A DNA stretch of 64,000 nucleotides from Blasia pusilla. Lineage: Eukaryota. This document shows, in pieces, positions 6,028-59,679 of the stretch. Positions within the stretch are counted from its first letter, which is position 1. The number at the start of each line of letters is the position of its first letter. The position numbers were made by a program, and so were the translations under genes. The stretch is taken from the NCBI GenBank assembly GCA_050084515.1, contig CM114271.1, forward strand, positions 29,388,001 through 29,452,000, in the 5' to 3' direction. A model generated the notes under the pieces. The model searched no databases. It saw nothing but the letters and a program-made list of their open reading frames with translations, and had not been told where the DNA came from.

Positions 6028-6543
6028 TGTCACGTCTTTTAGGATAGATCGGTGGGATCTAATAGAGCGCCTTCATGAGTAGTGGAGGACATGCCCAGTA
6101 GGTCGAGGGTGACCTGCTGAGGCCCTTGGAAACCTGAGATAACAAAGGTTTCCTTCTTCGTTCGGCTCATTTGGAGCCATATTGAGGAACTTACTATTTT
6201 AGGTAGGTACCATTTTGAGTATATGATCGACTTACTATTTTTGGTAAGTGGCCCTTGACCTCCTACATCAGGTCAAGAGCCAAGGAGGTGACTTGGGAGA
6301 ATAGGTTACCATGGAGAGAGCTTGGGAGAGGAGAGGGGTATACCTCAAGGAGAGAGAGCTTGAGAGCTCATTCTCTCTTTGTTGAACCTCTTGGCATGAG
6401 GCGGAGGAGCTATAGTACCTTGCCTTGTGAGTGTAACCCAAGCCTCTCATTAGGAGAGTGGGTTTGGTTTGACATGAGAGAGACTGCACACCTTTGAGAG
6501 CTATGGTGTGAGATGGTGGAGAGAGAGATTGGATCTTACTTTA
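6028..6543 (+). repeat. Split direct repeat A1 (~516 bp)
   Basis: Nearly identical to 15754-16267 (roughly a dozen differences by eye). Similarity ends after GGATCTTACTTTA. Confidence 0.95.
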
Positions 6544-8260
6544 CAAAGAGAGAATGAGAGAATGAGAGAGTAGAGAGCTTCATGGGGGAGCTCGCTGGTC
6601 ACTCGCTGTTTTTGCAGGTTGGGGACCGTGTTCCCCGTTCAGCGGCTCATGGGAGTGCTCACCGGAGCAAGGGCTGCTTTCATTACTCTTTGCATTTGCC
6701 GATTTTTCGTGTGGAAGAGTGGCGCGCGGAAGCGCTGCCCAATTTCTGATAGGGATTGAGTATGGGGGCGGGTTGCTCCATGCTGGTGCTCTCGGGAGCA
6801 TCATGTAACTTGCTGATTTGTATTTTTACAGATGTTACATTTTCGTTGGGAGAAATCAGCGCGGGAGCGCTGCCGAATTTTGTGTAGGAGAAAGAGACAT
6901 TGGGCTTTACGACAGTCCCTGTCAGTTTTTACTGAAATGTCCAATTCTAAATACTTTTTGATGGTAGCGTAGATCGTGAAGCTGTGCACGCTGTGCAACA
7001 AACAGTGCACAATTTGGAGTTGCGAGCAAAAAGTTATGGGCAATCTTGTAAAGCTGCCATTGCTAGGCGATTTTTAGGGTTAAATCGTGCAAACCCTAAA
7101 TCATTCGCCACACCGGCGGCGGCCGTCGCCATCATAGTCACCGTCACCGTCGACGGTCAACCTTCACCGTCATCGATTGGCCGTCACCATCAGCGGTCAA
7201 CCGTCACTGTCAAGGGTCCACCGTCCATTGTCCACCCTTTGGGTGCCATTGCCGCTATTACGGAGTGGAGGGTCTTCCATGACGTTCGTTGATTCCTTGA
7301 CTTGCGTCGCCACCACGTACTTTGTTTTGGCCGCCACCGTCATCGCAGTTTCTTCATCAACCAGTGAAGGAAGATGACCTCCGGTTATGGTGTTTGAGTT
7401 TTGATTTCATGCTGCTATGTTGAGATTGGTAGCCGCTCGACGACGATCGAGTATCGTGCCGTGATGCCCGTAGCCGCAACGCACCGCCGATTGCCGCGCC
7501 GTGCCGCTCATGGCCGCACCGCACCATCTCGATCGCGAAGCCGCACCGTCATTGTGGATCAGAGTGTGGGATTATTATTGATTGAGGAGGGTATGCCGCC
7601 GAGTGCCGCATCCCACCATCGAGGGCCGTGTCGTTCGTAGCCGTTCCGTGCCGCCTGCAACGCCGCACCGTTCCGCTGGGACCGCATCGTCTATCGAGGA
7701 GTTTTGAGCAAAGATCAGACGGGAGGAGTATGACTTGCTGATTGGAGGAGTTGTCTCCACGATCGAGTTGGGGTTAGATTTGCGATTCTTTGAGGAGCGA
7801 CATCGACATGTGTTCAGTTACCCATTCTCGGTCCTTTACCCCGCACGTGTGAGGGATTTCGGGATTTATTTGGGGATATTGGGTGTGTGGATGCTTTGAG
7901 AGAATCATTTATGTATGTGGTTTAGGGACATAGACCTGTGTGGGATGTCCGGAGTTGAGGGTAGGTTGTCGATGAGATGATAGCCTGGTCGATTTTCCGC
8001 ACCACGCCCGCGTGTTGCCGTGACGTTACACGTCTCGGGGAGAGAGTGTAGATCGAGTGCCGCATGTTTGGGATGAGTGATTGAGGGATTCCTCACGAGG
8101 TTCAGAGTGATCGGGTGAGAGGGGCACGAGGGTCATCACGGAGTCTGTTCGGGACTTTGAGAGGCGAGGTGGTGAACCCGAGAGTAGCTCTAGAGGTTTT
8201 ACGCGGAGTGGCGCGAGGTTTCGAGGGTCTCCACGTGAGGGACCACCTCGACCTCCTTCT

Positions 8261-9624
8261 ATGTCATCGTCAGACAAGGGGGAGGGTGTAGAGGAGTTTG
8301 TGAGCACATCGCCACACATTGTGAGTGGTCCAACCAGTTGGGCGTACGAGATGGACGACCGGGGTAGAGGACCGCATAGGTTTTCAGGTGCAGTAGGCAC
8401 GATTGAGTTGCACGATCTTATAGCAGAGTTTAGGAGTTGGTGCGACTCCCAACGGGCCAGGAACTCTAGAGAGTTTAACCCGTTTACAGCATGGAACGGT
8501 ATCTTCCAGCATTTAGAGGGGGCGCCCATGGACGATTACCATGAGTTCTCTTAGAAATATGCATGTGAGATCGAGGTGTGGAGGCTCTACTATGACCCAC
8601 ATTATGTGTCATGGACGGAGCCATTCCCAGATGAGGAGGAGGAGTCAAGAGAGGCTACTGCCTCTTCCACTAGTGACGTTTTAGGAGGGGTCACTCATGA
8701 CGGGAGCGATTGCACCGTCTAGTCGGGTTCGTCCCAGGTTCAACCCTGTGGTTGAGTTCTTTGCTGAGTTGAGGGCGAGCTACCAGGGGGTACGGACGGA
8801 GAAGTTGCGGAGCATCCACGACTTCCAGAGGCGCTTGGGTGAGAGTTTGCGTGAGGCTTACACTCGCTTGCGCCGGTTGATCAACGTCACTCAGGGGGTG
8901 ACAGAGGCTCAGGCTATCCAATCATGGTATGCGATGCTGGACCGGACCCTGCGGACACGGGTGCGGGAGGGGGTGCTTCTTATGAACACCTCCCCTACGT
9001 TGAGAGATGTTTTTAGGACCGCCGAGAACATTGAGCGCAACATGGCGGAGGAGAGCGTAGCCACCATGGGTTCTGGCGAGAGCGATCCACGATTGTATGC
9101 ACCACCGTGCAAAGAACGTGACTCGAGATAGGTTGACTGTGGCACCACGAGCTCAGGAAGGATGCCGAGAGGCCGTGCCACAGAGACCTGCTCCTTCATA
9201 TGCAGCTCAGCAGCAGCCGCCTACTATTACTTGTTGGTCATGTGGTGGCGCCCATCATCAGCGTGATTGCACTCGTCAGGGTCATGGACGTGTGCCTCAG
9301 CATGGAGGAGGAGATGGTGCTGCACCAGGAGGTTATCAGTGTGACTATTGTCAGAGGTATGGTCATACATGCGCCAGGTGTTTTAGTTTACATCATGAGT
9401 TACGTCTGGACCAAGGGCCAGAGAAGGCACCAGAGCGAGTAGTCGGTCCGGGTGGGCCTAGAGATCGTGCTCCAGGTGGTCCCGTTGGGGGACGAGGAGC
9501 TGGAGTTTCCCGACAGGGTGGTGGAGCTGCCCATGGAGGAGGTAGAGTACCACCACCTAGACGCGCTGAGGGAGATGCCGGACGTGAGGCTGGGATGGTC
9601 GCTTTCCGATACAACAAACTATAG
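8261..9624 (+). pseudogene. Retroelement gag with two CCHC zinc knuckles (in-frame stops)
   Basis: Segments FQRRLGESLREAYTRLRRL, CWSCGGAHHQRDC and CDYCQRYGHTCARC. Homologous to the minus-strand gag at about 62250-63250. Confidence 0.85.
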
Positions 9625-10264
9625 GAGCAGATTGCCGCTATGGCATTGAGGTTACCCGATGCCGATCCGTGGCATCGACATCATATGGAGCGACCCACAG
9701 ATCTGGAGGATCCTGGATGGATGTGCGGGTTGCCCAGATGGAGGCCGCCGCGAGACGCAGACGCGTGGAGCAGCCGCAGAGTTGGATCCACAAACGAGGG
9801 GAAGCCAAGAGAGCAGACTAGGCTTCCTCAATCTTTCACGTTGTCCCGGCGATGAGGACCCCATCGATGGGTCCTCATCAAAGTTCCTGGAGAGTTGGTA
9901 ATGTTGTTGGTGTGCAAGCACGGAGGGTGATGGGAGAAGCGAGTGCGACGACTCTTATTGTTGATGCTCAGGAGGGGCATGTGTCGAGCACGTTGTTGGG
10001 GGCGGCCACCGTTGTGTACCACACTCCTTTATTTTCTGCTTCCGATGTTGTGACGTTGGGAGGTACGCCCGCCGAGGCTTTTCGGCTGGCCGCTTCACTA
10101 TGTGAGCGCGGAGTTGGAGTTCCTGCATCACGTTCAGAGGTGATTGTAGAGGAGGTGATGGACGTGCCCTTGGAGCGGATGCTCGGGCCATCCACGTCAG
10201 ATTCATGGCAGGCTGCGGCTGCTAGGATGGCGGAGATGCCCGCTAGACCGCGATAGAGCGTGCC

Positions 10265-10717
10265 ATGGCTTCTCCTGGTGTTGTGTTGCTGGATAACCGA
10301 GGAGAGGTCTTCCAGTTGGTGAGTCCTGGAGGTAGAGCTTTTAGTCCACAGCGCGTCTTGTTGGATTCAGGAGCGCAACCCTTGATGTTGGGGAAAGCGT
10401 CATTCAGAGGATTGGGCTTGACGAGAGCCGATGTGGAGTGTTGTCCATTTCGGATACATACATCCTTGGGTGGAGTGAGTACCACACAGTATATCACCCG
10501 ACAGGAGGTCGTGGTGAGGATTCGCCCGGGACATCCTACAGATGAGTCCGTGGTGTGCGCCAAGGCGATAGTGACTGATGCTGAGTCCTACGACGTCTTG
10601 GTTGGTGGAGCAGTGTTATACCCGATGGGGTTTTCCCTAGATTATTGGGAGGAGTCAGCGTCCTACAGACTAGGATGGCAGTCAGGTGATGGGCGCCTTA
10701 GCTCATTACCCGTTTGA
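10265..10717 (+). pseudogene. Retroviral-type aspartic protease domain
   Basis: RVLLDSGAQP active-site motif and downstream YDVLVG motif. Confidence 0.85.
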
Positions 10718-11070
10718 TTCACAGGTGCAGTGATCGAGCAACGGCCAGGAGAGATGGCGACCTTAGCAGCATTTAGCAATGCCATTACTTGGCCTAGTGA
10801 TTTGATTGAGGGACATGTCCATGCAGAGGATACTCCCGTTCCTGACATTTCTATGGAGAGGAGTGTTATGGTAGCTGCATCATTCCGTGGAGGAGAGGTG
10901 CCGCTGTGGGGCTCGGACCGAGAGCTTCAACGATTGCGGATCGCACGCGTGCAGGCCGTGTGGAGCGAGGCGTTGCACAGGCGTGGTCTGAGGAACCCGA
11001 GGTAGCGGGGAGTGCTACGATGAAACCCTTGGATACTACACCCATTGTGTGGTGTACCCCGGAGGAGGGT

Positions 11071-12010
11071 ATTCGAGTGTTAGATCTCTTTGGAGGGATT
11101 AGCACCGGGTTAGCTGTTGTTTTGCAGGCAGGAGTGCGAGTACAGCAGTACTTGTATGTGGAGAGTGATGATGTTGCGAGGCGCGTCTCACTACGACATG
11201 TGGCGCAATTACGCCTATGTTTTCCCGACTTATTGTCTGCGTCCGCAATACAGGGGTACCAGAGTTCCCTACCGAGGGATATTTTGTTGTTGGGGGCGCA
11301 GGACTTAGAGCGGGTAGGGACCATTGATTTGGTCATTGCCGGTTGGCCATGTCAGGGCCAATCGAGTGCTGGACGAGGCAGCGGGTTGGCTGACACTCGG
11401 TCCAGGTTGTTTTGGGAGATGTTGAGGGTCTGACGGTAGTTGCAGGAGCACCAGTCTTGTTCTCCAGCCTACATTCTGGAGAATGTGCCGATCTTAGGAG
11501 ACTCCAGGTCACGGGTCGTGACGAGTGCTCATCAGGTGCGTGCATGGATCGGCCCTGCAGTGTTCTTGGATGCGGCGAGTGTAGGTTCTAGAGCCCATCG
11601 CCCGCGTCTATGGTGGACCAACTTGGTGCCCCATGCGGTGTTATGGAGGGCATATGCGAGACTAGAGCGCCCCTCCCCTTTGTTAGTGGATTCCATTCTG
11701 GATCCAGGTCGTCGATCACAGGCAGTGAGGCACAATGATCGACCACCGCTGACTGTGGTCAACAAGGTAGGCAGGCCGCGGGCAGCCTTGCCCACGTTTG
11801 TGAGTTTTCCCGCTTCCTATGCATACAAGGAGGCCGGTCCTGGCTTGGTTTGGGATAACCAGGTTCAGCGGTTGGTGGAGCCCAAGGCCGACGAGAGAGA
11901 GCGAGCGATGGGATTTCCCACAGGAGTGACGACAGTACCATCAGTGTCAGAGGCATCACGACGCCATGTCTTGGGTCAGGCGATGGACCTGAACTGCTTG
12001 ACATGGATCC
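11071..12010 (+). pseudogene. C5-cytosine DNA methyltransferase domain (DNMT3/DRM-like signatures, canonical motif order) embedded in pol; two in-frame stops at 11431-11439
   Basis: Motif I IRVLDLFGGIS, motif II YVE, motif IV IDLVIAGWPCQ, LFWE, motif VI YILENV, motif VIII AHRPRLWWTN, motif IX ERERAMGFP, motif X LGQAM. ORFs 10906-11433 and 11440-12318 share one frame. Confidence 0.92.
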
Positions 12011-12599
12011 TCAGCTTGGGAGTGGATGAGCAGCGTCGTATGAGATCGCGACAGATCACAGCGGTTGCGTTGGTGAGCCCCATGCCTACCGAGACGATGG
12101 AGGCAATAGCTGGGGGCGAGACCCGAGGAGATCTACGCACCAGGGGAGATCGGGAGAGACACCCTTGGACTTCTTGGGATGTTTTGAAGGTACGCAAGGA
12201 GATGATAGCCACAACATCGAGCGTGGTTTCGGGCACTGCACGTGGAGGAGATCAGAGTTTGCAGTTGGCTGCAGGAGAGCGGCCGAGTGTTGTTGTTCGA
12301 GACGGGGTTGCACCATAGCAACCACCGATACCCGCGCCGGAGAGTCCTACCGTAGTCACGATGGAGACTTGGGAGCCAGATATGGGCCCTAAGTTGACAG
12401 GAGGAGAGCGGCGCCGAATACATCAGCTCCTCAGGAGTTATAGGAGCTGCTTTGCGTTTAGCATGGAGGATTTGGGTACGCTCAAGGGACCGGGGATCCG
12501 CATTGAGTTGTCGAGTGATATGCCGATCTTCCGCGACCCCTGGTGCTGATGATATGGAGAGGGCTCTGATTGAGTAGGAGCCAAGACTTGGTCGGAGCA

Positions 12600-13820
12600 G
12601 GACTAGTGGAGATGTCGCATGGGGAGTATGCACCGCCACCTTTGTCATGCCCGCCAAGAAGGATGTGCATGGCAAATCGGACGGATAGGCGGATGTGTGG
12701 GGATTACCGACCTATCAATCGGCATTTAAGTCCGATAGGTATGCCATGCCCACCCTTGAGGAGATCTTTGATGCGATTGGTCACGCAAAGGTCTTGATTC
12801 ATTGATTTGCGAGTGGATACCATCACCTGCCTATCGATTGGAGGACACGCAGAAGACGGCATTTTGGGGCATCGATCCTCGGGAAGGATTGTTTGTACCG
12901 GTGGCGGTTCTTACCATTTGGGTTAAAGAACGCCCGGCTGAGTTTCGAGGGTCATGGATAGGATCTTGGCTGGTCTGGATTTTGCTAGGTGTTATATTGA
13001 TGACATCGTAGTCTTTAGCGCCACGGTTGAGGAGCATGAGCAACATCTAGAGGAGGTATTTCGGACGATTGCAATTACATGGGCTGAAGCTACATCCAGG
13101 CAAGTGCAAGTTCTTCTCGACCAGATTGAGTACTTGGGTCATACGATATACCGGGGCCTTGGTGTTCAGCAGACAAAGGTAGAGGCTATCTCACGCATTC
13201 CACCCCCTACAGATGTGAGCCGTGTTCGCGCATTCATGGATTGGCGAACTTCTATCGGCGATACGTCAAGGGATTGATTCGATTGGAAGCTGACCTTGCT
13301 CACCAAGGTGGATCACGAGTGGCACTGGGGGGATGAGCAGGAGCGAGCATTTCAGTTGCTCAAGGACAGGTTGACGTCCGCACCCATCTTGAGGAGACCG
13401 ATCAGGGGGCGTCCTTTCCAGTTGCACACAGATTGGAGCATGTTTTTGTCCTTTCCAGTTGCACACAGATTGGGGCATGTTGGGGCTTGGAGTGGTGCTC
13501 ACCCAGCATGATGATGAGGGTAGAGAGTTTGTGGTGGCTTACGCTAGCCGCTCGAACAACGCTGCAGAGGCGAAGTACAACTCGTATGAGGGTGAGTGCT
13601 TGGCTGCGGTGTGGGCTGTCGTGCATTTCAGGTGTTACTTATTCGGCAACCCCTTTACCATCATCACTAATCATCAACCACTGAAGTGGTTGATGGAGTG
13701 CGACAAGCTTACAGGGAAGCTTGCGAGATGGGCTCTGTTGTTGCAGGAGTATGATTTTCAGGTTGTACATAGACCTGGAACGCTGAACCAGGATGCAGAT
13801 GGGTTGAGTCGTAACCCATG
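12600..13820 (+). pseudogene. Reverse transcriptase and RNase H (frameshifted)
   Basis: RMCGDYRPIN, KTAFW, CYIDDIVVFS, IEYLGH, FQLHTDW, VAYASRSNNAAEAKYNSYEGECLAAVWA, ITNHQPLKWL, NQDADGLSR. Confidence 0.93.
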
Positions 13821-14199
13821 CCCGAGTCAGCAAGATGCGACTGGAGCTCGATGGCATGGAGAGAGTGATGAGGAGTCGGTGCCAAGATGGCACGCGTCAG
13901 CCTATTTAGGCATGTTGGCTATGGAGAGCCAGAGTGTGGAGACTTCGATGGCGAGGTCTAGTGGAGAGTCTTTGGATCCCGAGGCCAGTGAGGACACGAC
14001 AAGTGGCCGAGATATTCATGATGATGGAGTAGTCTTAGAGTACCTTCGTACTGGCAGCCTTGCGAGCACCATGGATGCTAGAGAGCGGGATCGGATCCTA
14101 CAGCGGGCGAGACGGTTCCGTTGGGAGGGGACACATGTTTTGAGGGTTTGGGAGGATGGTAGAGTACGCGTAGTGCCGCATCCTTTGCAGAGAGCACGA

Positions 14200-15110
14200 C
14201 TAGTGCAGCATGCCCACGAGGAGTTGGGTCACTTTGGGGTGAAGCGGACGTATAGCTTGCTCCAGATTCAGTATTGGTGGCGAGGCATGCAGATTGACGT
14301 TCAGCAGTTTGTTGCCAAGTGCATGGTGTGTGATCGGGTCCGAGCATCGTTCAATGCTCCGACTCCACAGTTGCATCCATTACCGATCATGGGCTTAGGG
14401 TATAGATGGAGTTTGGATTTTGCAGGACCTTTGCCCTTGACAGAGCGTCACAGTCGTTATGTGTTGGTGATGGTCGAGCACTTCTCGAAGTGGATCGAGT
14501 TGGTTGCATTGCCTGACAAAGCAAGTGAGGGAGTAGCTTATGCCTTCCTTGAGTCTTTGAGTCATTATGGCGCACAGGTGAGGTGTTGATGCACCAGGAT
14601 ACCGAAGTTTAGCGGTGAGTTCCAGGCCTTGTGTGATCAGGGGACGATCGACCCCGCACGAGTTCGCGAGATCATCCTGGCGGATGGATTAGCGGAGAGA
14701 GTTTGTGAGGCGGTGAAGAGGGGTTTACGCAAGTATGGCTTGCAGAGAGGTCACCTAGGAGATTGGGACCTCCGTTGCCATGGTTGGCGATGGGATACTG
14801 ATTCAAGACGGGCATCCTTAGCGTCTTTTTCACCGTATTTGCTACTTTATGGCGAGAGCCGATTTACCCACGGCCATTCGTCGAGAGATCTTTGGTGAGG
14901 TCTTTGAACCTTGATGACCCAGATGTATGGGTGCGAGCATGTTCTCGAGGGCTGAGTTATTTCGGAGAGTGATGCCCATGGCGTTCGAGAACTTGGCGAT
15001 TGCACAGCATCGGGATACGTTGAGGTATGCGACTATTCGAGGTGGTGGTTATCGACCAACTACTCGGAGGTTTCATCAGGGAGATTATGTCTATTTGCAG
15101 CAGACGGCAC
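14200..15110 (+). pseudogene. DDE integrase (HHCC zinc-binding domain and rve core)
   Basis: HEELGHFGVKRT...CMVC, WSLDFAGPLP, YVLVMVEHFSKW, GLAERV, FSPYLLLYG, FHQGDYVYL. Confidence 0.92.
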
Positions 15111-15297
15111 CGACGACGTTGGATGTGATTGAGGGCGCACTATCCTGAGAGTACGTGACATTTTGCCATCGGGTGTTCTCTTGCTGGAGGGACGCGATGG
15201 TATGGTATGGAAGGACCATGTGCGTAATTGTGCGCCATGTCACCTTCCTAACATTGATGGTACAGTAGATCCGAGCTTAGTAGTAGTTCCTGTAGGC

Positions 15298-15444
15298 TTG
15301 CGTTGTATGTTGTGTGGTTCTGCCCGTGGTGCGGCCACGATGCTAGTCTGTGATGGGTGTTCGAGAGGATGGCATATGACATGTTTGACGCCACCTCTCA
15401 CTAGGGTTCCTCAGGGAGGATGGATGTGTCCCAGATGTACATAG
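15298..15444 (+). pseudogene. C-terminal PHD finger of pol
   Basis: CMLC...MLVCDGCSRGWHMTCLTPPLTRVPQGGWMCPRC fits the C4HC3 spacing. Confidence 0.9.
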
Positions 15445-15624
15445 AGAAGGTAGTTCTACATTCCGACTTGTGTCTATGACATGGATGACAAGGAGGCGAC
15501 TAACGATGGGGCCACATGAGCACCCGGCCTTCTTGCTCTTAGCGTCCGAGAGATGTATGTCATGGTAGGTAGGGATTGATGGCTATCTGGAGTTAGAGGA
15601 CCTAACCACCAGCTAGGGGGGCGA

Positions 15625-15751
15625 TTGGAGATATTTTGGTTCTTCTTGTCTTGTTGTTTGGATGCCATGAGTTAGCATGGGATCATGCGTGTTTGTGTGT
15701 GTGTTCGGTGACAGCGATGTATGTTGTGTAGCGATGTGTATGCGCACGATA
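15625..15751 (+). repeat. Split direct repeat B1 (127 bp), preceded by purine tract AGGGGGGCGA (15615-15624)
   Basis: Matches 16268-16394 almost exactly. Confidence 0.95.
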
Positions 15752-15753
15752 AC

Positions 15754-16394
15754 TGTCACGTCTTTTAGGATAGATCGGTGGGATCTAATAGAGCGCCTTC
15801 ATGAGTAGTGGAGGACACGCCCAGTAGGTCGAGGGTGACCTGTCGAGGCCCTTGGAAACCTGAGATAGCAGGTTTGCCTTTCGTTTCGGCTCATTTGGAG
15901 CCATATTGAGGAACTTACTATTTTAGGTAAGTACCATTTTGAGTATATGATCGACTTACTATTTTTGGTAAGTGGCCCTTGACCTCCTACATCAGGTCAA
16001 GAGCCAAGGAGGTGACTTGGGAGAATAGGTTACCATGGAGAGAGCTTGGGAGAGGAGAGGGGTATACCTCAAGGAGAGAGAACTTGAGAGCTCATTCTCT
16101 CTTTGTTGAACCTCTTGGCATGAGGCGGCGGAGCTATAGTACTTTGCCTTGTGAGTGTAACCCAAGCCTTTCATTAGGAGAGTGGGTTTGGTTTGACATG
16201 AGAGAGACTGCACACCTTTGAGAGCTATGGTGTGAGATGGTGGAGAGAGAGATTGGATCTTACTTTATTGGAGATATTTTGGTTCTTCTTGTCTCGTTGT
16301 TTGGATGCCATGAGTTAGCATGGGATCATGCGTGTTTGTGTGTGTGTTCGGTGACAGCGATGTATGTTGTGTAGCGATGTGTATGCGCACGACA
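15754..16394 (+). repeat. Split direct repeats A2 (15754-16267) and B2 (16268-16394)
   Basis: A2 matches A1 and B2 matches B1. Ends GACA. Confidence 0.95.
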
Positions 16395-16800
16395 CAAGAG
16401 CCAAACCCTACTTGACACTTTTGCCAGATGCATATGAAGAGGGGCAAGCCATTTGGGCCGGCTTCGGACCCCCTCAAAGACAATTTCTTTAAGTTATGAC
16501 TATCTAACATAGCTATGGCTATCAATGGGGTAACTTCAGCGGTCATATGGAGTTCCTCCGATTCCTCGGCATGGCTTATCATGTGGGTTTACGTGGTGAT
16601 GTTCATCGAATTGTAGTTGTTGTTTACAGCGTCGCTTGTGACTATGACAAAGTTATGTGACTCCGCAAGACGTCGCATGTACCCCCGCAAACTCTATATA
16701 TTTAGAGTTCATGACTGTTTCTCTCAATTAGTTTTGCTCCGCTATAAGGTAGGAAATATAACACGACCATTCCCTAATGTAGAAGGTCTCCAACTATGGC
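16395..16800. repeat. ~409-bp tandem repeat array, right part (rest of unit 2, start of unit 3)
   Basis: Colinear with 5620-6027. A third AACTCTATATATTTAGAGTTCA occurs at about 16690. Confidence 0.85.
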
Positions 16801-29950: not shown

Positions 29951-30006
<56 letters not shown>

Positions 30007-33427: not shown

Positions 33428-34061
33428 TGTCACGTCCTTTAGGATAGATCGGTGAGATCTAGTAGAGCGTCTTCAAGAGTGGTGGAGGATAGGCCTAGGA
33501 GGTGGAGGATGACTTGTTGAGGCCCCGGTAAACCTGAGAGAGCAGGTTTTCCCTTCATTTTGGCTCATTTGGAGCCATATTGAGGAACTTACTATTTTAG
33601 GTAAGTACCATTTTGAGTATATGATCAACTTTCTATTTTTGGTAAGTGGCTCTTGACCTCCTACATTAGGTCAAGAGCCAAGGAGGTGACTTGGGAGAAT
33701 AGGTTACCATGGAGAGAGCTTGGGAGAGGGGAGGGGTATATATCCCAAGGAGAGAGAGCTTGAGAGCTCATTCTCTCTTTGTTGAACCTCTTGGCATGAG
33801 GCGGCCGAGCTATGGTCCCTTGCCTTGTGAGTGTAACCCAAGCCTCTCATTAGGAGAGTGGGTTTGGTTTGACATGAGAGAGAGTGCACACCTTTGAGAG
33901 CTATGGTGTGAGATTGTGTAGAGAGAGATTGGATCTTATTTTAATTGGAGATATTTTGGTACTTCTTGTCTTGTTGTTTGGATGCCATGAATTAGCATGG
34001 GATCGTGCGTGATTGTGTATGTGTTCGATGACATCGATGTATGTTGTGTATGCGCACGACA
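33428..34061 (+). mobile_element. Solo A-B unit of the split-repeat retroelement, with perfect 4-bp TSD CTGT
   Basis: CTGT|TGTCACG...CACGACA|CTGT. Colinear with 15754-16394. Confidence 0.95.
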
Positions 34062-34169
34062 CTGTCGACAGCAACGTGTGATAAAAAAAAGACAGGGACA
34101 GCAAGGTGCGGGCGATAAAAAGAGAGGCGATCGCTTTCTGAATAGATAGAGTTCACCCAGTCCAGAAGT

Positions 34170-46992: not shown

Positions 46993-47038
46993 CTCTTTGA
47001 GGCGGTAGTTTGTGTTTGCAAGTTGGAGTCTTAACAAG

Positions 47039-52199: not shown

Positions 52200-54692
52200 C
52201 TACCAACTAACCCTCGATCCTATAGGCCCAAGTGACTCCACACAAGGATGGGAGGATCAACCTCTCCAAGGTTGCCACTCCTCATAAAGGAAGGGTGACC
52301 TACACTCGTAGATCACCTCCTAAGAGTAGGTCACATATGAGATCTCAAAATAAGGAATTACATGACCTCTCTAAGGCCTTGATACTATCTCACCCTACGT
52401 TCCATCTATCATGACAGTTTTCATGCAAATAGACATCGCTGCCACCATACATCGACTGTCATGCACACAACTCTAAGATCCATCTAGCTATGAATCCTAC
52501 TATATCTACATAGGAACAACTAGACAACCCAAATCACCCCCCTAGCTGGTGGTTAGGTCCCTGTAACTCCAAATAGCCTACAAAATAAGTTTAAATACCA
52601 TGCACCTTTTTTTATTTAAGATCAAGAGGTCGAGTGCTATGTCGCCCCATCATTAGTCACCTTCCTATAATCCATAACATCAAGAGTCATCTTGCGATCT
52701 ACCTATCACACCTACATACATCTGGGATAGATCCAATGTACTTGAGGAACCAAATCGAGAGGCAACATCAAACACAACATATGCCATCCTCGAGAAGACC
52801 CATTATAGACTAGCATTGTGGTTGCTCCTCTAGTAGACCCACACAACATGCATCTCAAGCCTGCAAGAACAAATACCAAGCTTGGATCAATACTCCCATC
52901 TACATTCAGAAGATGATTTGGCGCACACTTACGCACATGATCTTTCCAAACGGTACCATCACAGCCCTCTAAAATAAGGACTCTTGAAGCTAGTTTGAAG
53001 GTAAAATCTCTCACACTCACATAATAATGCGTCCCGTCGTTACGTCCAACATCTTTGGCGCCGTCTGTTGTAGATAAACATAATCACAATACTGGAATCC
53101 CCAAATCCCTGGTCGATAGCCCACTTTGATCCATGCGTAGTCTCGTATCTCAAAGTATCGCGATGTTGAGCGATAGCCAGGTTCTCAGATGCCATAGGCA
53201 TCTCCAAAAGAGCTATGCCCTCTGAGAATACGCTCACTCCCATAGATTGTCGAGGTAAAGAACCTCAACCACATCTCATCGAATAGTTGACAATGAAAAT
53301 GATGCCAAGGATGTTTGTCGACTAAAGAAATAACCCATCGCCAAGCACGGAAATTGTAGGTCCCAATCTCCTAAGTGTCCCCTCTACAATCTATACTTGC
53401 GCAATCCTCTTTTCACTATCTATAAAACTCTCTCTGCCAAACAATATGCCTACGGATGATCTCGAGAAGTCGTACGATGATCTATTAGCGCATGATCACA
53501 CAAGGGGTGAAAGTCAGCCCTAGACTCCCTTTTCTGTCAACACCTATGTTGATGCACTCAAATGTCTAAGCACTCCATGAAGAGATGCATAAGCCACTCC
53601 CTCATTCAACTTTTCTGGAAACGCTCCCAACTCAATCCCCTTGGAGAAGTGCTCCACCATAACCAACACATACCAAATATGGCGTCTTGTCAATGGTAAA
53701 GGCCCTGCAAAGTCTAAAATCCAACAATACCATAATCTCATGATCGGTAAAGGATTGAGCGATGCGCGCACCCTATCACATACAATGCATCTGGCTATAA
53801 AATGCTAAACATCAATCTCCATATCATGCCATAAATATTGAATCTGAAGCAATCTATATGTACGCTTGACTCCAAAATGATCCAACTCCTCGTGAGCATG
53901 TCCCATGACTCGTGCTTGTTGCAAAGGATACGGCACCATCCGCAATTGTCCATCCTTCCAAACTCAAAACACCTACGTCCCCTTCCACCTAAACCTCCTA
54001 GTTCACTGTAGGATCCAATCCCACTCTCTAGCACCTACCGTGCTTGCTAAGACACAAGTGCGCAAGGATTCCAAGACCATCTCATCATCATGGATGTCTC
54101 GAGTCCCTATCAACTCCTCACGAGGACTGAGGACTCACCATCCAACCTCTCTCTTGGAGTGGATGCCTCCTATCGACTTGACATTGCCAAAAAACACAAA
54201 TACGAAAATTCGTGCCAACCTCAAACCATCTCCTTATCACTTTCACCATGCCACCTAGCTCCAATTGCATCACTCTGGCTCGTGTAGGGGTTACTGCTCA
54301 ACCCGTCCACATCCAAGTTCAAATGTCTTGGGTGATGGACAACCTGAAAATTATACTCCTACAACAAGAGTGCACATATGGCAAGCTTCCCTTTGAGCTT
54401 GTCAGACTCCATCAACCATCTGAGTGGCTAATGATCAATAATGAGTGTGAAAGGGTTCTCGAACAAATAACATCTGAAATGGGTCATTGCCCACAATACA
54501 GCTAAGCACTCCCCCTCATAAGAACTTTACTTCACCTCTACAATTTTGTTGTAGTGGCTAACATATGCCACTACGAACTCCATTCCCTCATCATCTCGTT
54601 GAGTGCGCACCGTTCCTAACCCCAACATACTCTAGTCTGTATGTAACTAGAACAGATGACTACGCATGGATCTTCTCAAAATGGGCGAGGAC
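52200..54692 (-). mobile_element. 3' fragment of a second split-repeat subfamily: RNase H-integrase-PHD, purine tract, presumed B1 (~52533-52419) and start of A2 (from 52416 leftwards); left edge approximate
   Basis: WILDFAGPLP, YVLVMVEHFSK and LRCMLCGS...GWHMLCL. Shares GGACCTAACCACCAGCTAGGGGGG with the full copy. Junction GAAA-AC-TGTCATG. B and A are assigned by position only, because no second copy is in the window. Confidence 0.85.
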
Positions 54693-54699
54693 GTCAACA

Positions 54700-55060
54700 T
54701 GTCCATGAGCTCTTGAAATGCTTGCTCTTGATCATGGCCTTGAAGGTAAACTCCCATGATCCCCGTAGCTTCCTCACATCATAGAGCTTTACACCATGCC
54801 GTAACTCCTTAAATTCCTCCACAAATGGGGCAAGATAAATTTTCATGTTACCTCCATGAACCTCGCCATGAACACTCTCCTTCCATTGAAAAGGAGGGCA
54901 AGCATAACAAAAAAATTCTTTGTTTGCAACCAAGGAGGTAAGTTATAGATTACTAGTGATATTGGCCATGTTGATCAAGAACTATATTTGTCTAAAAGTG
55001 GGATCACTCCATAAAGAGCTAACTCGAATCTACAAATTCTCTTTTCTTCTCTGTCTTGGA
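54700..55060 (-). mobile_element. CACTA/En-Spm transposase (Transposase_21-like) fragment
   Basis: Minus strand reads STWPISLVIYNLPPWL and NMKIYLAPFVEEFKELRHGVKLYDV...FTFKA. Confidence 0.8.
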
Positions 55061-55589: not shown

Positions 55590-56169
55590 TGTCGTGCGAA
55601 TCCACATCGTCATACAACATACATCGTTGACATACCATACTCACATACATACATAACATAGACGAGAGTATCCACAAACACAAGTGTACCACAACTGAAA
55701 TCCGTGAAAGACCTACTGTCATAAAACACGTTTACAATCACATACAATCGAGCCAAACCCACTCCACGATGGGAGAATCCAGGTCGAAGCTTGCGGGAAA
55801 CACCCTAGCCAAGAGCTCTACTCACTACCAAGGCTAGCTCCCAACGCAACAGGCTCAACTCAAAGAACTGACTATTCTTTGAGTGCACTCCACCTTATAT
55901 CCTCCAACCTAAGAGCGGGCCCTACTGGGAAAGTCACCCCAACCGAGTAACCCCAACCCTATGTATGGAACCGCATCTCTACCAATCCACTACGGTCCTA
56001 CATAAGGAATGGCCTCTACTAGCACACCATACTCTACGACATAATCCATATGGTCATGACAAATGTCGTATAATCCACATCGTCATACAACATACATCGC
56101 CGACATACCATACTCACATACATACATAACATAGACGAGAGTATCCACAAACACAAGTGTACCACAACT
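55590..56169 (-). repeat. B1-A2-B2 terminal block (B ~107 bp twice, 365-bp spacer starting TGTCATG)
   Basis: 55590-55696 matches 56064-56169. Minus-strand junction is GACA-TT-TGTC. Confidence 0.92.
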
Positions 56170-59100
56170 CGCCCCCTAATCGGTTAGGTCCTCTAACTCC
56201 TGGTAGCCCTATACATCTACTACATGCTATACACCTTCTTGGGTGCCCAATCGAAGGCCGGGTGCTAGGTTGCCCCATCGTTAGTCGCACATCCGTAATC
56301 CATATCATGCAAAGATCAAGTCATCTACCTCTCCTAAGTACATCGAGACAAACCCACCTTCCAAAGAGGAACAACATCCAAACGTGAGTCAAACACATCA
56401 TGTGCCAACCCTAGAACACCGATCACACACCAACATACGGCCGCGTTACACAGCAGACCCACACAACATGCACCTCAAGCTAGCACGTATCATGGCTAAG
56501 CTTGGGTCAAGATACCATCCACATTTGGAAGATGACATGGCGCACAATTACGCACATGGTCCTTCCAAACAACTCCATCACGACCCTCCAACATGAGAAC
56601 TCCGAAGCTAACACCTCACGCACTCAGTAAAATAGTGCGGCCCGGCCGTCACATCCAACGTTGTCGGGCATCGCTGCAAATAGACATAGTCCCCACATGG
56701 AACCTACTGAATCGATGGTCGATAACCTCCACTCGAATGGTTGCATACCGCAACGTATCCCCTGTGTTGAGCAATGGCAAGATTCTCAAAGGTGTTGGCA
56801 TAACTCTCCGAAAGAGCTCCGCTCGCTGAGAACACACCTCATCCACATCTCTCGGGTCATCAAGGTTCACCACCTCACTAGACTCCCGACAATTCTTTTT
56901 TGCCGGCAAGTCCGATCTCGGCCGTATAACAGAAAATAAGGTGAGAAGGAAGCCAAGGATGCTTGGCGATCGAACCTATACCCCATGGCTAACCATGGCA
57001 ACCGAATATCCGGTCTCCAAGATGCCCCTTCAGAGGCCATACTTGCGCAATGCCCTCTTCACTGCCTCGAACCACACGCCAGCCAAACCATCCGCCTGGA
57101 TGATCTCGAGACGTGGTCCGATGATCAATCAACGCCTTGTCACACAAGACCTGAAACTCACCTCAAACTCAGACTCGGTCGGTCAAGACTTCACCAGTGG
57201 TGCACCAAAATGACTAAGCACTCTATCCGAAACATACGCCGTTCCTCACTCGCTTTGTCCGTAATGCCACCAACTCAATCTACTTGGAGAAGTGCTCCAC
57301 CATCACCAACACATATCGATGATGTCGCATACCAACGGTAACGGTCCCGCAAAGTCCACACTCCAACGGTAACCCAACCCCATAATAGGCAAGGGGTGTA
57401 ATTGTGGTGTAGGGGCATTAAATGATGCCTCACCCGGTCACAAACCATACAACGTGACACCAATGCTGCACTGAGTATGCATGCCACGCCACCAATATCG
57501 CCAAGGAGTAAGCTATACGACGCTTTACCCCAAAATGTCCCAACTCCTCATGGGCATGTCGCACAATGCGCTCTCTCTGAGCCAAATGTGGCACTACTCG
57601 TACTCTACCATCCTCCCACACGCGGAGAATATGTGTTCCCTCCAATCGATACCTATTAGCACGTTGAAGAACACGGTCTCGCTCCTTGGCACTCACTATG
57701 CCTGGCACCCTACTGGTCCGTAGGAACTCCAACACCAACGCATCATCATGAATATCACGCTGATCCGTACCACCATCTCCAACCTTAGGATCTGAAGGCT
57801 GGCCATCTACCCTCTGACTAGAGTAAGATATCACGTGGTCCTCCATACTAGAGTCCACCCCTAACCAACATAAAAAGGCGGATGCATGCCAACCTGGCAC
57901 CATCTCCTCATCAACCTCGCCATGCCATCTAGCCCCTGTTGTATCCTCTTGGCTAGTATATGGGTTCCTACTCAACCCATCAGCATGAAGGTTGGCAACT
58001 CCAGGACTATGTACCACCTGGAAGTCATACTCCTGTAAGATAAGAGCCCACCGTGCAAGCTTCCCCGTAAGCTTGTCCGACTCCATCAACCACTTGAGCG
58101 GTTGGTGATCAATAACAAGGGTAAACGGGTGCCAAACAAGTAACACCTAAAGTGTGCCCTGACCCACACTATCGCCAAGCACTCTCCCTCATATGAACTA
58201 TAGCGCGACTCCATTTGCATTATTCGAACGACTTGCATAGGCCACCACAAACTCCATGTGCTCATCATCATGTTGTGTCAACACCGCTCCAAGTCCCAAC
58301 CTACTCCAATCGTGTGTAATCGAATGGGCGCCCTCGATAGGTCTCTCAAGATAGGCGCCGCCACCAACTGGGCCTTAAGCTCCACAAAAGCTCTCTCCGA
58401 TCATCTCCCAGTGCCACTCTTGATCTGATTTCAGCAATTGGTTCAAAGGCTTTGCCATAGCACTAAATCCCTTCACATACCTCCGATAGTAGTTCCCCAA
58501 TCCCATGAATGCTCGAACTCTACTCACATCTACCAGACGCGGAATAAGTGCAATAGCCTCCACCTTTGCTTGCTGAACTCCCAAACCACCTGGATAGATC
58601 ACATGACCCAAGTACTCAACATCCTCATGGAAGAACTTACACTTTCCTAGATGCAACGTAGACCATGAGCTTTCAACCGCTCAAACACCATCTGCAAATA
58701 TATCGATGCTCCTCCACCGTGTTCTTGAACACCAAGATATCATCAATGTAACACCGAACAAAATCCAACCTCGCTAGGATCCCGTCCATCACTCTGAAAC
58801 TCGGCGGTGCATTCTTCAACCCAAAGGGTAAGAATTTCCACCTGGTACAAACAATCCTTGCCATGAGAGTTGACGCCCAAAATGTTGTCTTGGCCTTGTC
58901 ACTCTCCCGAATCGAAATTGATGGTATCTCGCCGAAGATCCAAAGTACTGAAAATCTTTGCCTGTCCCACCACATCAAAGATCTCTCAGGTGTAGGCATG
59001 GCATACCTATCGGCCTTGGTTTGCCGATTGATAGACGGTAATCTCCACACATCCGCCTATCCGTGTAGTTGCCATGCATATCCTTTTAGCAGCATGGCGT

Positions 59101-59679
59101 GGGCGATGCATACTCTCCATGCGACAACTCCACTAATCCAGCCTCCAAAAGGTCCAACGTCCTACTCGAATCAAGTCCTCTCCATATCACTATATCGGTA
59201 GGGACGACGGAAGATTGGCGTATCACTAGCCAAATCAATCCGTATACCGGGTCCAACCAGAGAACCCAACTCCTTCATGCTAAAGGCAAAACAACTCCTA
59301 TAAGCACGTAGGAACCGTGTCAGCGCCGTTTCTCACCTCCCGTAAGCTTGGGCCCAAGTAATGGCTCCCAAGTCTCCTCCTTTGGCACACTAGAGGGAGA
59401 GGGCGATGCCATTGGTCGCACGCAACCCCCTCACAAGATGGTGCACCCTTAGCTACACCATCATCTCGAACAAATAACTCCTCCACCAAAGATGAGCAAC
59501 CAACTCCACATGCCACCATTACATCCCATTTACTCCAAGGATGCAAAATACTACTCTCCTCGCTTCACCGATGCCTCTACCGCCCCGGTAGCCATCGAAG
59601 CTCATTACAAGGGGTCAAAGACCCAGACATAGTCCGAGGTCGACGCCGCTGCCGGCCATACCAAGACTCAAAATCCAAG

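What the first reader, a model, noticed from the sequence alone, without database searches (positions are those of the whole stretch)
11071..12010. A cytosine-5 DNA methyltransferase built into a retrotransposon polyprotein between protease and RT
Seen: a full set of C5-MTase motifs (FGG, PCQ, ENV, RxRLWW, ERxMGFP, LGQAM) sits between protease and RT. It occupies the same slot in a diverged second subfamily (59680-60605 -) whose terminal repeats differ, so it is a fixed part of the family rather than a one-off capture. Established: PCQ and ENV are the catalytic motifs, and RxRxxWxN plus ERxxGFP resemble DNMT3/DRM enzymes. The motif order here is canonical, not permuted as in DRM. From memory, DNMT-carrying retrotransposons have been reported in dinoflagellates and the charophyte Klebsormidium, so the concept is not new; a land-plant family with this whole architecture may be. 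Inference: the enzyme is cleaved from pol, packaged, and methylates the cDNA or insertion site (self-silencing, camouflage or copy-number control).
Basis: partly seen in the sequence, partly recalled or inferred. Interest (0 to 1): 0.92.

Follow-up and report, generated by a model that had tools for sequence, protein, structure and literature searches.

The report
Retrotransposon carrying a DNMT3-type methyltransferase
This is a decayed copy of a plant jumping gene whose protein chain includes a DNA-methylating enzyme of the DNMT3 type, a kind first described in a green alga in 2018 and seen here in what looks like a moss or liverwort relative.

Summary
Window 11071-12010 encodes all six C5-methyltransferase motifs in canonical order. 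It matches PF00145 and is closest to DNMT3A/3B/3C among solved structures. It lies between a retropepsin and the RT of a Ty3/Gypsy-type element ending in integrase plus a PHD finger. A second copy, 70-74% identical, has the same order. Both copies are dead.

The kind is known: KnitGypsy-Dnmt3 of Klebsormidium (PMC5890265) shares the Gypsy pol, the unrearranged DNMT3 and the odd A-coding-B-A-B repeats, which both copies here show.

New here:
- Named relatives occur in Marchantia, Calypogeia, Riccia and Sphagnum.
- A conserved in-frame UAG in a CARYYA leaky-stop context separates Gag-PR-DNMT from RT-RH-INT-PHD.
- Chlorophyte relatives carry the DNMT between RNase H and integrase instead.
- Sister copies are transcribed in sense.
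- The domain is under purifying selection, dN/dS 0.10-0.13.

Catalytic activity and function remain untested. An earlier scan note (e1-2850094) describes a dead DNMT-like fold in a diatom Gypsy element, on other DNA.

The parts
6028..6543 (+). Terminal repeat A1 of copy 1. It begins TGTCAC and is not followed by a B unit.
   Evidence: 97.1% identical to 15754-16267, with 11 mismatches and 3 gaps in 517 columns. The start is aligned and the end.
6544..8362 (+). Long leader between A1 and gag, with a 20-nt tandem repeat at 7139-7225.
   Evidence: No protein match before 8363. Tandem repeat found. RNA reads cover it.
8363..10246 (+). gag-like region, broken by frameshifts (frames 2, 3, 1, 2, 3).
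   Evidence: tblastn of Marchantia gene models P0003, P0004 and P0006 gives 35-64% identity in pieces. Those models have weak Retrotrans_gag hits.
10247..10972 (+). Retropepsin-like protease region. DSG at 10364-10372; in-frame stop at 10715.
   Evidence: Pfam hits are weak (E 0.04-0.1). The homologous stretch in P0029 and L061 hits PF13650. tblastn map.
10963..12189 (+). In-frame stops at 11431 and 11437.
   Evidence: PF00145. DNMT3A is the best solved relative at E 5e-13. 61% identical to a Marchantia model over 421 residues. Motif coordinates.
12316..12324 (+). Conserved in-frame TAG followed by CAACCA, a candidate leaky stop between Gag-PR-DNMT and RT-RH-INT-PHD.
   Evidence: The same frame continues on both sides. 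A stop sits at the homologous codon in 57 of 61 related loci. The type I motif UAG-CARYYA is taken from PMC5382211.
12361..13439 (+). Reverse transcriptase, frameshifted.
   Evidence: RVT_1 E 3.2e-7 in 12942-13274. tblastn of P0029. Reads of sister copies differ by several 1-2 nt indels here.
13411..13481 (+). 37-nt tandem duplication private to this copy or to few copies.
   Evidence: Found. RNA reads skip 13437-13475 (32, 14 and 32 reads in the three runs).
13450..14586 (+). RNase H, integrase zinc-binding domain and start of the integrase core.
   Evidence: RT_RNaseH E 1.3e-32, Integrase_H2C2 E 1.5e-16, rve E 1.2e-4.
15304..15438 (+). PHD finger at the C-terminal end of the integrase reading frame.
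   Evidence: PF00628 E 5e-12. Nearest solved fingers are CHD4, PHF12, KDM5 PHD1, DPF3, PHF21A, AIRE and UHRF1.
15624..15749 (+). Repeat B1, directly before A2 and preceded by a purine run (polypurine-tract-like).
   Evidence: 125 of 126 bases identical to 16267-16392. Purine run shown.
15754..16267 (+). Terminal repeat A2.
16267..16394 (+). Repeat B2, ending ...CGACA. A2+B2 together have TG...CA ends.
33428..34070 (+). Solo A+B unit of the same family, flanked by CTGT on both sides (4-bp target duplication).
   Evidence: 91-92% identical to A and to A2+B2. Ends aligned.
56182..63255 (-). Copy 2 of a diverged subfamily: gag, PR, DNMT (about 60650-59643), RT, RH, INT, PHD. Heavily decayed. Its 5' repeat would lie beyond the window.
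   Evidence: 70-74% nucleotide identity to copy 1. tblastn map. 8 stops in the DNMT frame.
55599..56169 (-). B-A-B at the 3' end of copy 2: 98-nt repeats at 56072-56169 and 55599-55696.
   Evidence: 98% identical, spacing 473.
52718..54748 (-). Third, 5'-truncated copy (RNase H, integrase, PHD only).
   Evidence: tblastn of P0029. 72-73% nucleotide identity to copy 1.

Best explanation
What it is. Copy 1 (6028-16394, + strand) and copy 2 (- strand) are dead members of a lineage of Ty3/Gypsy-type retrotransposons of green plants. These elements carry a DNMT3-type cytosine-5 DNA methyltransferase as a standing, selected part of their own polyprotein. This is the kind published as Gypsy-DNMT3 (KnitGypsy-Dnmt3).

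Shown here:
- The gene order is Gag, protease, DNMT3-like domain, in-frame stop, RT, RNase H, DDE integrase, PHD finger.
- The repeats are laid out A ... B-A-B.
- The catalytic motifs are conserved and under purifying selection in relatives.
- Sister copies in the same organism are transcribed in sense.

Inferred, with my odds:
- The UAG in a CARYYA context is a leaky stop (about 0.7). Most ribosomes would then make Gag-PR-DNMT and a minority the full chain with RT, integrase and PHD. The methyltransferase would be made in Gag-like amounts.
- The protease frees the DNMT (about 0.5).
- The DNMT methylates the element's newly made double-stranded cDNA or the fresh insertion, probably at CG by analogy with SymbioDIRS-Dnmt3 (about 0.35).
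- The PHD finger ties the integrase to H3 tails unmethylated at K4, steering insertion away from active promoters (about 0.4).
For: Identity of the domain:
- PF00145 hits.
- The first 29 solved relatives are all DNMT3A/3B/3C, followed by DRM and M.HhaI.
- An AlphaFold model of homolog P0062 (69% identical to the window's domain; pLDDT 90.1) has DNMT3A/3B/3C as every Foldseek hit listed down to rank 50, with target-normalised TM of 0.77-0.84 against the isolated catalytic-domain chains.

Fixed part of the element:
- The same order is seen in copy 2.
- It is seen in P0029, a single 2358-aa ORF.
- It is seen in L061: a 1369-aa ORF with PR and DNMT, then TAG, then a 1047-aa ORF in the same frame with RT, RH, INT and PHD.
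- 58 of 242 related proteins show this order.

Selection:
- In 88 aligned domains, the C of PC is kept in 83, the E of ENV in 88, its N in 79, and RxR in 82.
- dN/dS is 0.13, 0.12 and 0.10 among the intact L061, L062 and L063.
- dN/dS is 0.25 between the two window copies, like PR (0.17) and RH-INT-PHD (0.20).

The stop:
- Of 61 related loci that hold the conserved block after it, 54 have TAG or TAA plus CAR-YYN at the same codon. Three more have the TAG followed by a second stop.
- Three lineages keep it in an otherwise unconserved linker: the window, the L001 group and L061-63.
- Predicted Gag-PR-DNMT proteins of several sublineages end 56-167 residues after the domain.
- Among the listed RNA joints, none spans it.

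Repeats like KnitGypsy-Dnmt3: against PMC5890265, legends of Fig. 1e and Fig. 4c.

Transcription: 4084, 4075 and 4259 RNA reads were laid over the whole element, roughly 10-40 times more on one strand. 83% are only 90-95% alike, so they come from sister copies.
Against: - No activity is shown. The isolated KnitGypsy-Dnmt3 domain gave no methylation in yeast, which the authors call inconclusive (PMC5890265, section 10).
- Both window copies are broken. Copy 1 has at least 8 frame changes, 2 stops in the DNMT and 1 in PR.
- Pfam sees only the N-terminal third of the domain.
- I could not compare with the Klebsormidium sequences themselves or with host plant DNMT3. Membership of that family therefore rests on shared features, not on a tree.
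- Most of the 61 loci come from a few metagenome records and are probably close kin, so the count of conserved stops overstates independence.
- 47 of the 61 read CAACCC, which misses the last A of CARYYA. Strict TAG-CARYYA is met in 4 of 61 plus the window.
- More distant members (P0029, P0153, P0146, P0036, P0038) have no stop there.
- In copy 2 the site has decayed to non-stop codons.
- Copy 1 has no clean target duplication, and I found no primer binding site.
Confidence: 0.85

Rival explanations
1. The domain is kept, but not as a DNA methyltransferase. It would serve as a structural or DNA-binding module, or act on RNA or on the RNA:DNA hybrid.
For: The Klebsormidium domain gave no methylation in yeast (PMC5890265, section 10). 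The same paper raises RNA methylation for SymbioLINE-Dnmt (section 11, passage read). An earlier scan note (e1-2850094, unchecked) reports a catalytically dead DNMT-like fold in a diatom Gypsy element.
Against: The catalytic PC, ENV and RxR and the SAM-binding motif I are kept in 79-88 of 88 domains. dN/dS is 0.10-0.13. The fold and nearest relatives are DNA-acting DNMT3 enzymes, not DNMT2.
Confidence: 0.1
2. The enzyme is active, but its target is the host chromatin at or around the insertion, or old copies of the family, rather than the cDNA. This would be self-limitation that keeps copy number tolerable, or marking of the new site as heterochromatin.
For: The PHD finger resembles readers of the unmodified H3 tail (the binding specificities are recalled). 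This parallels the ADD reader of animal DNMT3. KnitGypsy-Dnmt3 copies carry CHG and CHH methylation in the host (PMC5890265, section 9).
Against: PHD and DNMT lie on opposite sides of the stop. They share a chain only in the readthrough product and would be separated if the protease cuts. Nothing here distinguishes cDNA from chromatin as the substrate.
Confidence: 0.25
3. The conserved stop is not read through. RT-RH-INT-PHD would be made another way (splicing as in Ogre elements, reinitiation or a subgenomic RNA). Or elements with the stop depend on others in trans.
For: 47 of 61 loci read CAACCC, not the strict CARYYA. More distant members have one open frame. Only the best-supported RNA joints were listed (37 more were not shown). 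The Ogre splicing case is recalled.
Against: ORF2 follows in the same frame with no start context needed. L061 has 1369 and 1047 open codons on the two sides of a single TAG. Stop, CAR and YY are conserved while the linker around them is not. No listed RNA joint spans 12316.
Confidence: 0.2
4. Chance juxtaposition: a host DNMT3 pseudogene, or a one-off capture lying inside a nested transposon.
For: Both copies are decayed and lie in a transposon-rich stretch.
Against: The same order appears in two subfamilies in the window. It appears in continuous ORFs elsewhere and in 58 of 242 relatives. 269 cluster representatives match at E 1e-30 or better.
Confidence: 0.01

Closest known systems
KnitGypsy-Dnmt3 of Klebsormidium nitens (de Mendoza et al. 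2018, PMC5890265; called 'streptophytes (Gypsy-DNMT3)' in preprint 10.64898/2026.05.21.726589)
   Same: An LTR Gypsy pol with an unrearranged Dnmt3-type domain. Repeats laid out A-coding-B-A-B as in DIRS elements. Key residues conserved. Purifying selection (they report Ka/Ks below 0.2; here 0.10-0.25).
   Different: The host here is not named. The nearest named relatives are liverworts and Sphagnum mosses, not a charophyte alga. The text I could read does not give the slot of the DNMT, a stop between DNMT and RT, or a PHD finger ('PHD' occurs 0 times). Fig. 4c and the supplements were not visible. No Klebsormidium sequence was at hand for a direct comparison.
Chlorophyte Gypsy elements with RT-RH-DNMT-INT-PHD (Scenedesmus sp. 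PABB004 'pol', Monoraphidium neglectum, Chromochloris zofingiensis, Cymbomonas tetramitiformis; database entries)
   Same: The backbone is colinear: RT-RH 43% and INT-PHD 39% identical to L061. The DNMT3-like domain is 34-40% identical. The C-terminal PHD finger is shared.
   Different: The DNMT sits between RNase H and integrase. One branch of the DNMT tree (support 96) separates the 78 rows of this type from the 43 rows of the window's type.
SymbioDIRS-Dnmt3 of Symbiodinium (PMC5890265)
   Same: A Dnmt3-type domain inside the Pol chain of a retrotransposon. A-coding-B-A-B repeats. Domain order differs between subfamilies. This one was shown to methylate CG de novo in yeast.
   Different: It is a DIRS element with a tyrosine recombinase. 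Here a DDE integrase is present (Integrase_H2C2 and rve), with TG...CA ends and a 4-bp target duplication at the solo unit.
Animal DNMT3A/3B/3C catalytic domains and plant DRM2
   Same: Best sequence matches (E 5e-13) and best fold matches. Motifs I, IV, VI, VIII, IX and X are present.
   Different: About 20-23% identity in the fold alignment. No PWWP or ADD domain in the same chain. Unlike DRM, the motifs are not permuted: DRM2 aligns only its C-terminal part to the N-terminal motifs.
Chromoviruses (Gypsy elements with a chromodomain after the integrase)
   Same: [quoted passage not shown]
   Different: Its target mark is inferred from the nearest solved fingers only.
Type I readthrough of tobamoviruses (UAG-CARYYA; PMC5382211, sections 14 and 17) and Gag-Pol readthrough of gammaretroviruses (recalled)
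   Same: An in-frame UAG followed by CAA CCA in the window, CAG TTA in L061 and L062, and CAA TCA in L063. It lies between an abundant upstream product and the polymerase.
   Different: Readthrough is not tested here. The commonest relative context, CAACCC, misses the last base of the consensus.

Membership tests
C5 cytosine DNA methyltransferase (PF00145) | Significant match to the family profile | tested here: met
   E 4.5e-8 (33.3 bits, cut-off 22) on the natural ORF. E 9.9e-11 on the read-through. Only profile positions 57-120 of 324 are covered.
C5 cytosine DNA methyltransferase (PF00145) | Motifs I (FxGxG), IV (PC), VI (ENV), VIII (RxR), IX and X, in canonical order | tested here: met
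   Coordinates. Conservation in 88 domains. In the window copy the frame is broken by two stops between motifs IV and VI.
DNMT3 subfamily | Closest solved relatives, by sequence and by fold, are DNMT3 enzymes | tested here: met
   the first 29 sequences are all DNMT3A/3B/3C; every listed fold hit of the model of homolog P0062 down to rank 50 is DNMT3A/3B/3C. The model is of a homolog 69% identical to the window's domain, not of the window's own broken frame.
DNMT3 subfamily | Falls inside the DNMT3 clade in a tree with DNMT1, CMT, DRM, DNMT5 and bacterial enzymes | not tested
   No host DNMT3, DRM, MET1 or CMT sequences came back. All listed hits are of the transposon type.
Ty3/Gypsy LTR retrotransposon | Pol order PR, RT, RNase H, DDE integrase | tested here: met
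Ty3/Gypsy LTR retrotransposon | Two full long terminal repeats with TG...CA ends, and a short target duplication | tested here: inconclusive
   The A+B unit has TG...CA ends, and the solo unit has a 4-bp duplication. The 5' repeat of copy 1 lacks B, and a B lies before A2. Copy 1 has no clean duplication.
Gypsy-DNMT3 (KnitGypsy-Dnmt3) | Unrearranged Dnmt3-type domain within the polyprotein of a Gypsy element | tested here: met
   against PMC5890265 section 9.
Gypsy-DNMT3 (KnitGypsy-Dnmt3) | Repeats laid out A-coding-B-A-B | tested here: met
   Copy 1. The 3' end of copy 2. Compared with the legends of Fig. 1e and Fig. 4c of PMC5890265.
Gypsy-DNMT3 (KnitGypsy-Dnmt3) | Sequence kinship with the Klebsormidium elements | not testable with these tools
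   No hit named Klebsormidium. The library has no names. Figures and supplements were not held.
DIRS-like retrotransposons | Tyrosine recombinase instead of a DDE integrase | tested here: not met
   Integrase_H2C2 and rve are present. No phage-integrase hit in the Pfam scans of the polyproteins.
Type I programmed readthrough | UAG followed by CARYYA | tested here: met
   Window 12316-12324. L061, L062, L063 and L006 also fit. 47 of 61 loci read CAACCC, which misses the last base.
Type I programmed readthrough | Measurable readthrough product | not testable with these tools
   Needs a reporter assay, proteomics or ribosome profiling.

The most novel reading that the evidence does not exclude
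The DNMT3-carrying Gypsy lineage is not a private acquisition of Klebsormidium. It is an old lineage spanning the green plants, with one backbone (integrase plus PHD reader).
- In chlorophytes the methyltransferase sits between RNase H and integrase.
- In streptophytes, including at least four bryophyte genera and the genetic model Marchantia polymorpha, it sits between protease and RT.
- In the bryophyte clade a conserved tobamovirus-type leaky UAG puts the DNMT on the Gag side, so it is made in capsid-like amounts.
- Sister copies are still transcribed.

None of the land-plant presence, the chlorophyte architecture, the stop or the PHD finger turned up in my literature searches.
Probability: 0.45. 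Interest if true: 0.65.

Novelty: new member of a known kind. Interest (0 to 1): 0.5.

Why it matters
What retrotransposon-encoded cytosine methyltransferases do is still open. The 2018 paper showed activity only for the dinoflagellate DIRS enzymes and got no answer for the streptophyte one. If the family is present and transcribed in bryophytes, and annotated in Marchantia polymorpha, the question can be put to a land plant. Marchantia has transformation, gene editing and methylome maps.

The conserved stop adds a concrete, testable point about dosage: the DNMT is made like Gag, not like Pol. The two slots of the domain on one backbone show that it has been moved or re-acquired within a single lineage. 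For this window alone the matter is modest, because both copies are dead relics of a published kind.

Tried and rejected
- Whole-genome search: no genome is held for this window.
- Organism name:
  - The exact look-up of two intact ORFs of a neighbouring young element found nothing.
  - Sequencing-run names are coded. No listed holder is on record as RNA. Air-metagenome rows hold 0.22-0.40 of the words, but I did not lay them, so I draw nothing from them.
- Earlier scan notes: none for this place or sequence.
With homolog P0062 it only returned generic DNA-methylase clusters.
- Repeat layout in relatives: self-comparison of 14 long metagenome loci gave no clear A...B-A-B. Most are decayed or cut by contig ends. 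L004 has a 307-nt pair cut by the contig end. L038 has a possible B pair.
- Tandem array around copy 1: Tandem Repeats Finder saw nothing there. The ~407-bp periodicity rests on pairwise alignments at 69-84%.
- Primer binding site: I found none after A1 by eye.
- Chance juxtaposition was considered and rejected (see the rival explanations).
- DIRS membership was considered and rejected, because there is no tyrosine recombinase.
- Literature: searches for land-plant, Marchantia, chlorophyte or PHD-bearing DNMT retrotransposons found only the 2018 paper and later citations of it. I checked passages in PMC11982613, PMC12344493, PMC6453930, PMC5784723, PMC10952607 and PMC9998398. PMC12344493 refers to the streptophyte case as 'LTR Copia', apparently a slip.
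Full report
1. THE OBSERVATION

Translating 11071-12010 on the + strand gives FGG, PCQ, ENV, RPRLWWTN, ERERAMGFP and LGQAM in that order. Their coordinates are 11089-11097, 11347-11355, 11479-11487, 11599-11622, 11893-11919 and 11971-11985. The frame has two stops, at 11431 and 11437, between motifs IV and VI.

Pfam's DNA_methylase profile matches the natural ORF 10846-11430 at E 4.5e-8. It matches the frame read with X at the stops at E 9.9e-11. Only about positions 57-120 of the 324-position profile are covered. Against solved structures, the first 29 distinct sequences are all DNMT3A, 3B or 3C (best E 5e-13). DRM enzymes and M.HhaI follow. DRM2 aligns only its C-terminal part to the window's N-terminal motifs, as expected if DRM is permuted and this domain is not.

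I modelled a natural homolog, P0062 (69% identical to the window's domain), with a 30-row alignment. It folds confidently (pLDDT 90.1, pTM 0.89). Every Foldseek hit listed down to rank 50 is DNMT3A/3B/3C. Target-normalised TM is 0.77-0.84 against the isolated catalytic-domain chains.

2. THE SURROUNDINGS

Self-comparison and protein mapping define copy 1 as 6028-16394. Its parts, in order:
- Repeat A1, then a 1.8-kb leader.
- A gag-like region from about 8363.
- A retropepsin-like stretch with DSG at 10364-10372. Its Pfam hits are weak, but the homologous stretch in P0029 and L061 hits PF13650.
- The DNMT domain.
- RT (RVT_1), RNase H, integrase zinc domain and core.
- A PHD finger at 15304-15438.

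The copy is dead. The protein map changes frame at least eight times. There is a stop in the protease region and two in the DNMT. A 37-nt duplication lies at 13411-13481.

Copy 2 lies on the - strand, about 63255-56182. It is 70-74% identical in nucleotides and has the same order PR, DNMT, RT, RH, INT, PHD. A third, 5'-truncated copy lies at 54748-52718.

3. THE REPEATS

- A1 (6028-6543) and A2 (15754-16267) are 97.1% identical.
- A 126-nt unit B occurs directly before A2 (15624-15749) and directly after it (16267-16392). 125 of its 126 bases are identical between the two.
- A1 is not followed by B.
- A begins TGTCAC and B ends CGACA. A+B therefore looks like one long terminal repeat with TG...CA ends.
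- A solo A+B unit at 33428-34070 is flanked by CTGT on both sides.
- Copy 2 shows the same B-A-B at its 3' end: 98-nt repeats, 98% identical, 473 apart.

This A-coding-B-A-B layout is what de Mendoza et al. give for SymbioDIRS-Dnmt3. [quoted passage not shown] 1e and 4c).

How a DDE-integrase element renews such ends I cannot say. RNA reads join the end of B to the start of A with two letters between (15, 18 and 17 reads). This is most simply the B1-A2 junction of sister copies. Copy 1 sits in a roughly 407-bp periodic repeat and has no clean target duplication.

4. RELATIVES

The word-indexed protein search found 60 longer and 145 similar-length relatives of the DNMT stretch. The best are 65-74% identical. 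The named ones are:
- 19 cluster representatives from Marchantia polymorpha.
- 4 from Calypogeia fissa.
- 5 from four Sphagnum species.
- 1 from Riccia sorocarpa.
- 1 from Closterium.
- 1 from Chromochloris.

Nothing is closer than 74%. The host of the window is therefore either not in the collection, or these copies are old. Its name stayed coded.

A full scan of 1.84 billion representatives with P0062 gave 269 proteins at E 1e-30 or better. Many of them are 1000-3456 residues long. I found no paper that names land-plant or chlorophyte members. Later papers cite the case as 'streptophytes (Gypsy-DNMT3)' or as previously reported in streptophytes. Figures and supplements of the 2018 paper were not visible and may bear on this.

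5. A FIXED, SELECTED PART

In 88 aligned full-length domains (87 of the 180 proteins then in hand, plus the window):
- The catalytic C is kept in 83.
- The E of ENV is kept in 88 and its N in 79.
- Both arginines of RxR are kept in 82.
- The ERE of motif IX is kept in 84-86.

Nei-Gojobori estimates support selection:
- Among three loci with intact domains, dN/dS is 0.13 (dS 0.26), 0.12 and 0.10.
- A pair of decaying near-copies gives 0.89, as expected after insertion.
- Between the two window copies dN/dS is 0.25 for the DNMT, against 0.17 for PR, 0.20 for RH-INT-PHD and 0.44 for RT. Here dS is saturated and the alignments come from tblastn pieces, so these values are rough.

In copy 1 the DNMT frame runs on to a TAG at 12316. 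The same frame then continues into the RT side. The six bases after the stop are CAACCA. This fits the type I readthrough context UAG-CARYYA of tobamoviruses (PMC5382211, sections 14 and 17).

Of 80 related metagenome loci, 61 hold the conserved block that follows the stop. In those 61:
- The first in-frame stop upstream sits exactly 14 codons away in 51 and 21 codons away in 3.
- 54 read TAG (39) or TAA (15) followed by CAR-YYN.
- 3 more have the TAG followed by a second stop.
- 4 do not fit.

Most of these loci come from a few records and are kin. The independent support is therefore the agreement of three lineages, whose linker is otherwise unconserved:
- The window: CAA CCA.
- The L001 group: CAA CCC.
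- L061-63: CAG TTA and CAA TCA.

L061 is the cleanest case. It has 1369 open codons with PR and DNMT, one TAG, then 1047 open codons in the same frame with RT, RH, INT and PHD.

Further points:
- Predicted Gag-PR-DNMT proteins of several sublineages, the Marchantia models among them, end 56-167 residues after the domain.
- Eukaryotic gene models that cross the place do so by deleting it.
- More distant members such as P0029 have one continuous frame.
- In copy 2 the site has decayed.

I read this as a leaky stop (odds about 0.7). The DNMT would then be made with Gag and protease, and RT, integrase and PHD only in the readthrough fraction.

7. TWO SLOTS ON ONE BACKBONE

I placed the domains in the 242 proteins that hit a DNMT profile:
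- 58 have the window's order, with the DNMT after PR or before RT.
- 79 have the DNMT after RT-RH and before the integrase.
- 104 hold the DNMT alone.
- 1 is odd.

A FastTree of 121 near-complete domains separates the two orders by one branch with support 96. Rows without a scorable order or full coverage were left out. The named hosts sort accordingly:
- Marchantia, Calypogeia, Sphagnum and Closterium have the window's order.
- Chromochloris, Scenedesmus, Monoraphidium and Cymbomonas have the other.

The backbones are colinear and as similar as the DNMTs. RT-RH is 43% and INT-PHD 39% identical between L061 and P0052, which has about 500 extra residues holding the DNMT. This fits one old lineage in which the domain moved once. 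It does not exclude two captures of related genes, since I had no host DNMT3 to root the tree.

8. EXPRESSION

Three RNA runs of the same coded organism lay 4084, 4075 and 4259 reads over the whole of 6000-16400. Roughly 10-40 times more have the first mate on the - strand. In the usual stranded library that means sense RNA. 83% of the reads are only 90-95% alike, so they come from sister copies.

Those reads also show which defects are particular to this copy:
- All reads across the first DNMT stop carry another letter there: 32 of 32, 29 of 29 and 29 of 29 among reads with the first mate on the - strand.
- They lack many of this copy's 1-2 nt indels.
- They lack the 37-nt duplication.

No listed RNA joint spans the stop at 12316, though 37 joints were not shown. 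A joint that skips 12482-13572, without intron-like ends, points to transcribed RT-less derivatives.

9. THE PHD FINGER

It matches PF00628 at E 5e-12. It is closest to CHD4, PHF12, KDM5 PHD1, DPF3, PHF21A, AIRE and UHRF1. By my recall these mostly read the H3 tail unmethylated at K4. I infer a tethering role like the chromodomain of chromoviruses. This is not tested.

10. VERDICT

It is a member of a published kind, so the score of 0.92 is too high. The land-plant range, the stop, the PHD finger and the second slot in chlorophytes are worthwhile additions that I could not find in print. What the enzyme does remains open.

Noticed in passing
window 46527-50607: A young, internally deleted LTR element. 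Its 446-nt repeats are 99.3% identical. It has an intact 565-aa ORF with a DUF4100 match (E 3.5e-7) and a second ORF that stops at the start of pol. The exact proteins are not in the 15-billion collection.
   Followed up: partly
window 34267-34839: A fragment of a Pif1/Helitron-type helicase (weak Pfam hits), right after the solo A+B unit.
   Followed up: no
window 23913-24294 and 29996-30369: Further debris of the same family: a gag fragment matched by the Marchantia models, and an inverted A-like repeat 79-82% identical.
   Followed up: no
window 5473-6025 and 16398-16800: Copy 1 is flanked by units of a roughly 407-bp periodic repeat (69-84% alike). The undisturbed unit junction reads straight across the insertion point. 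Tandem Repeats Finder did not call it.
   Followed up: partly
window 12482-13572 (RNA joint) and 16394 to 6028 (RNA joint): RNA reads of sister copies skip the whole RT without intron-like ends (12, 21 and 6 reads). Others join the end of B to the start of A with two letters between (15, 18 and 17 reads). How an integrase-bearing element maintains A...B-A-B ends is unexplained.
   Followed up: no
protein P0080: A 455-aa relative, 50% identical, is filed in NCBI as a DNA cytosine methyltransferase of a Candidatus Obscuribacterales metagenome-assembled genome. It is most likely a plant or algal transposon contig binned with a bacterium.
   Followed up: no
proteins P0044, P0052, P0228, P0235 and others: A large set of chlorophyte and environmental Gypsy polyproteins carries the DNMT3-like domain between RNase H and integrase, again with a C-terminal PHD finger. 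An earlier scan note (e1-2850094) reports a dead DNMT-like fold in that same slot in a diatom.
   Followed up: partly
window 22001-24000: The lowest G+C of the window (0.316, against 0.51-0.56 inside the DNMT elements).
   Followed up: no
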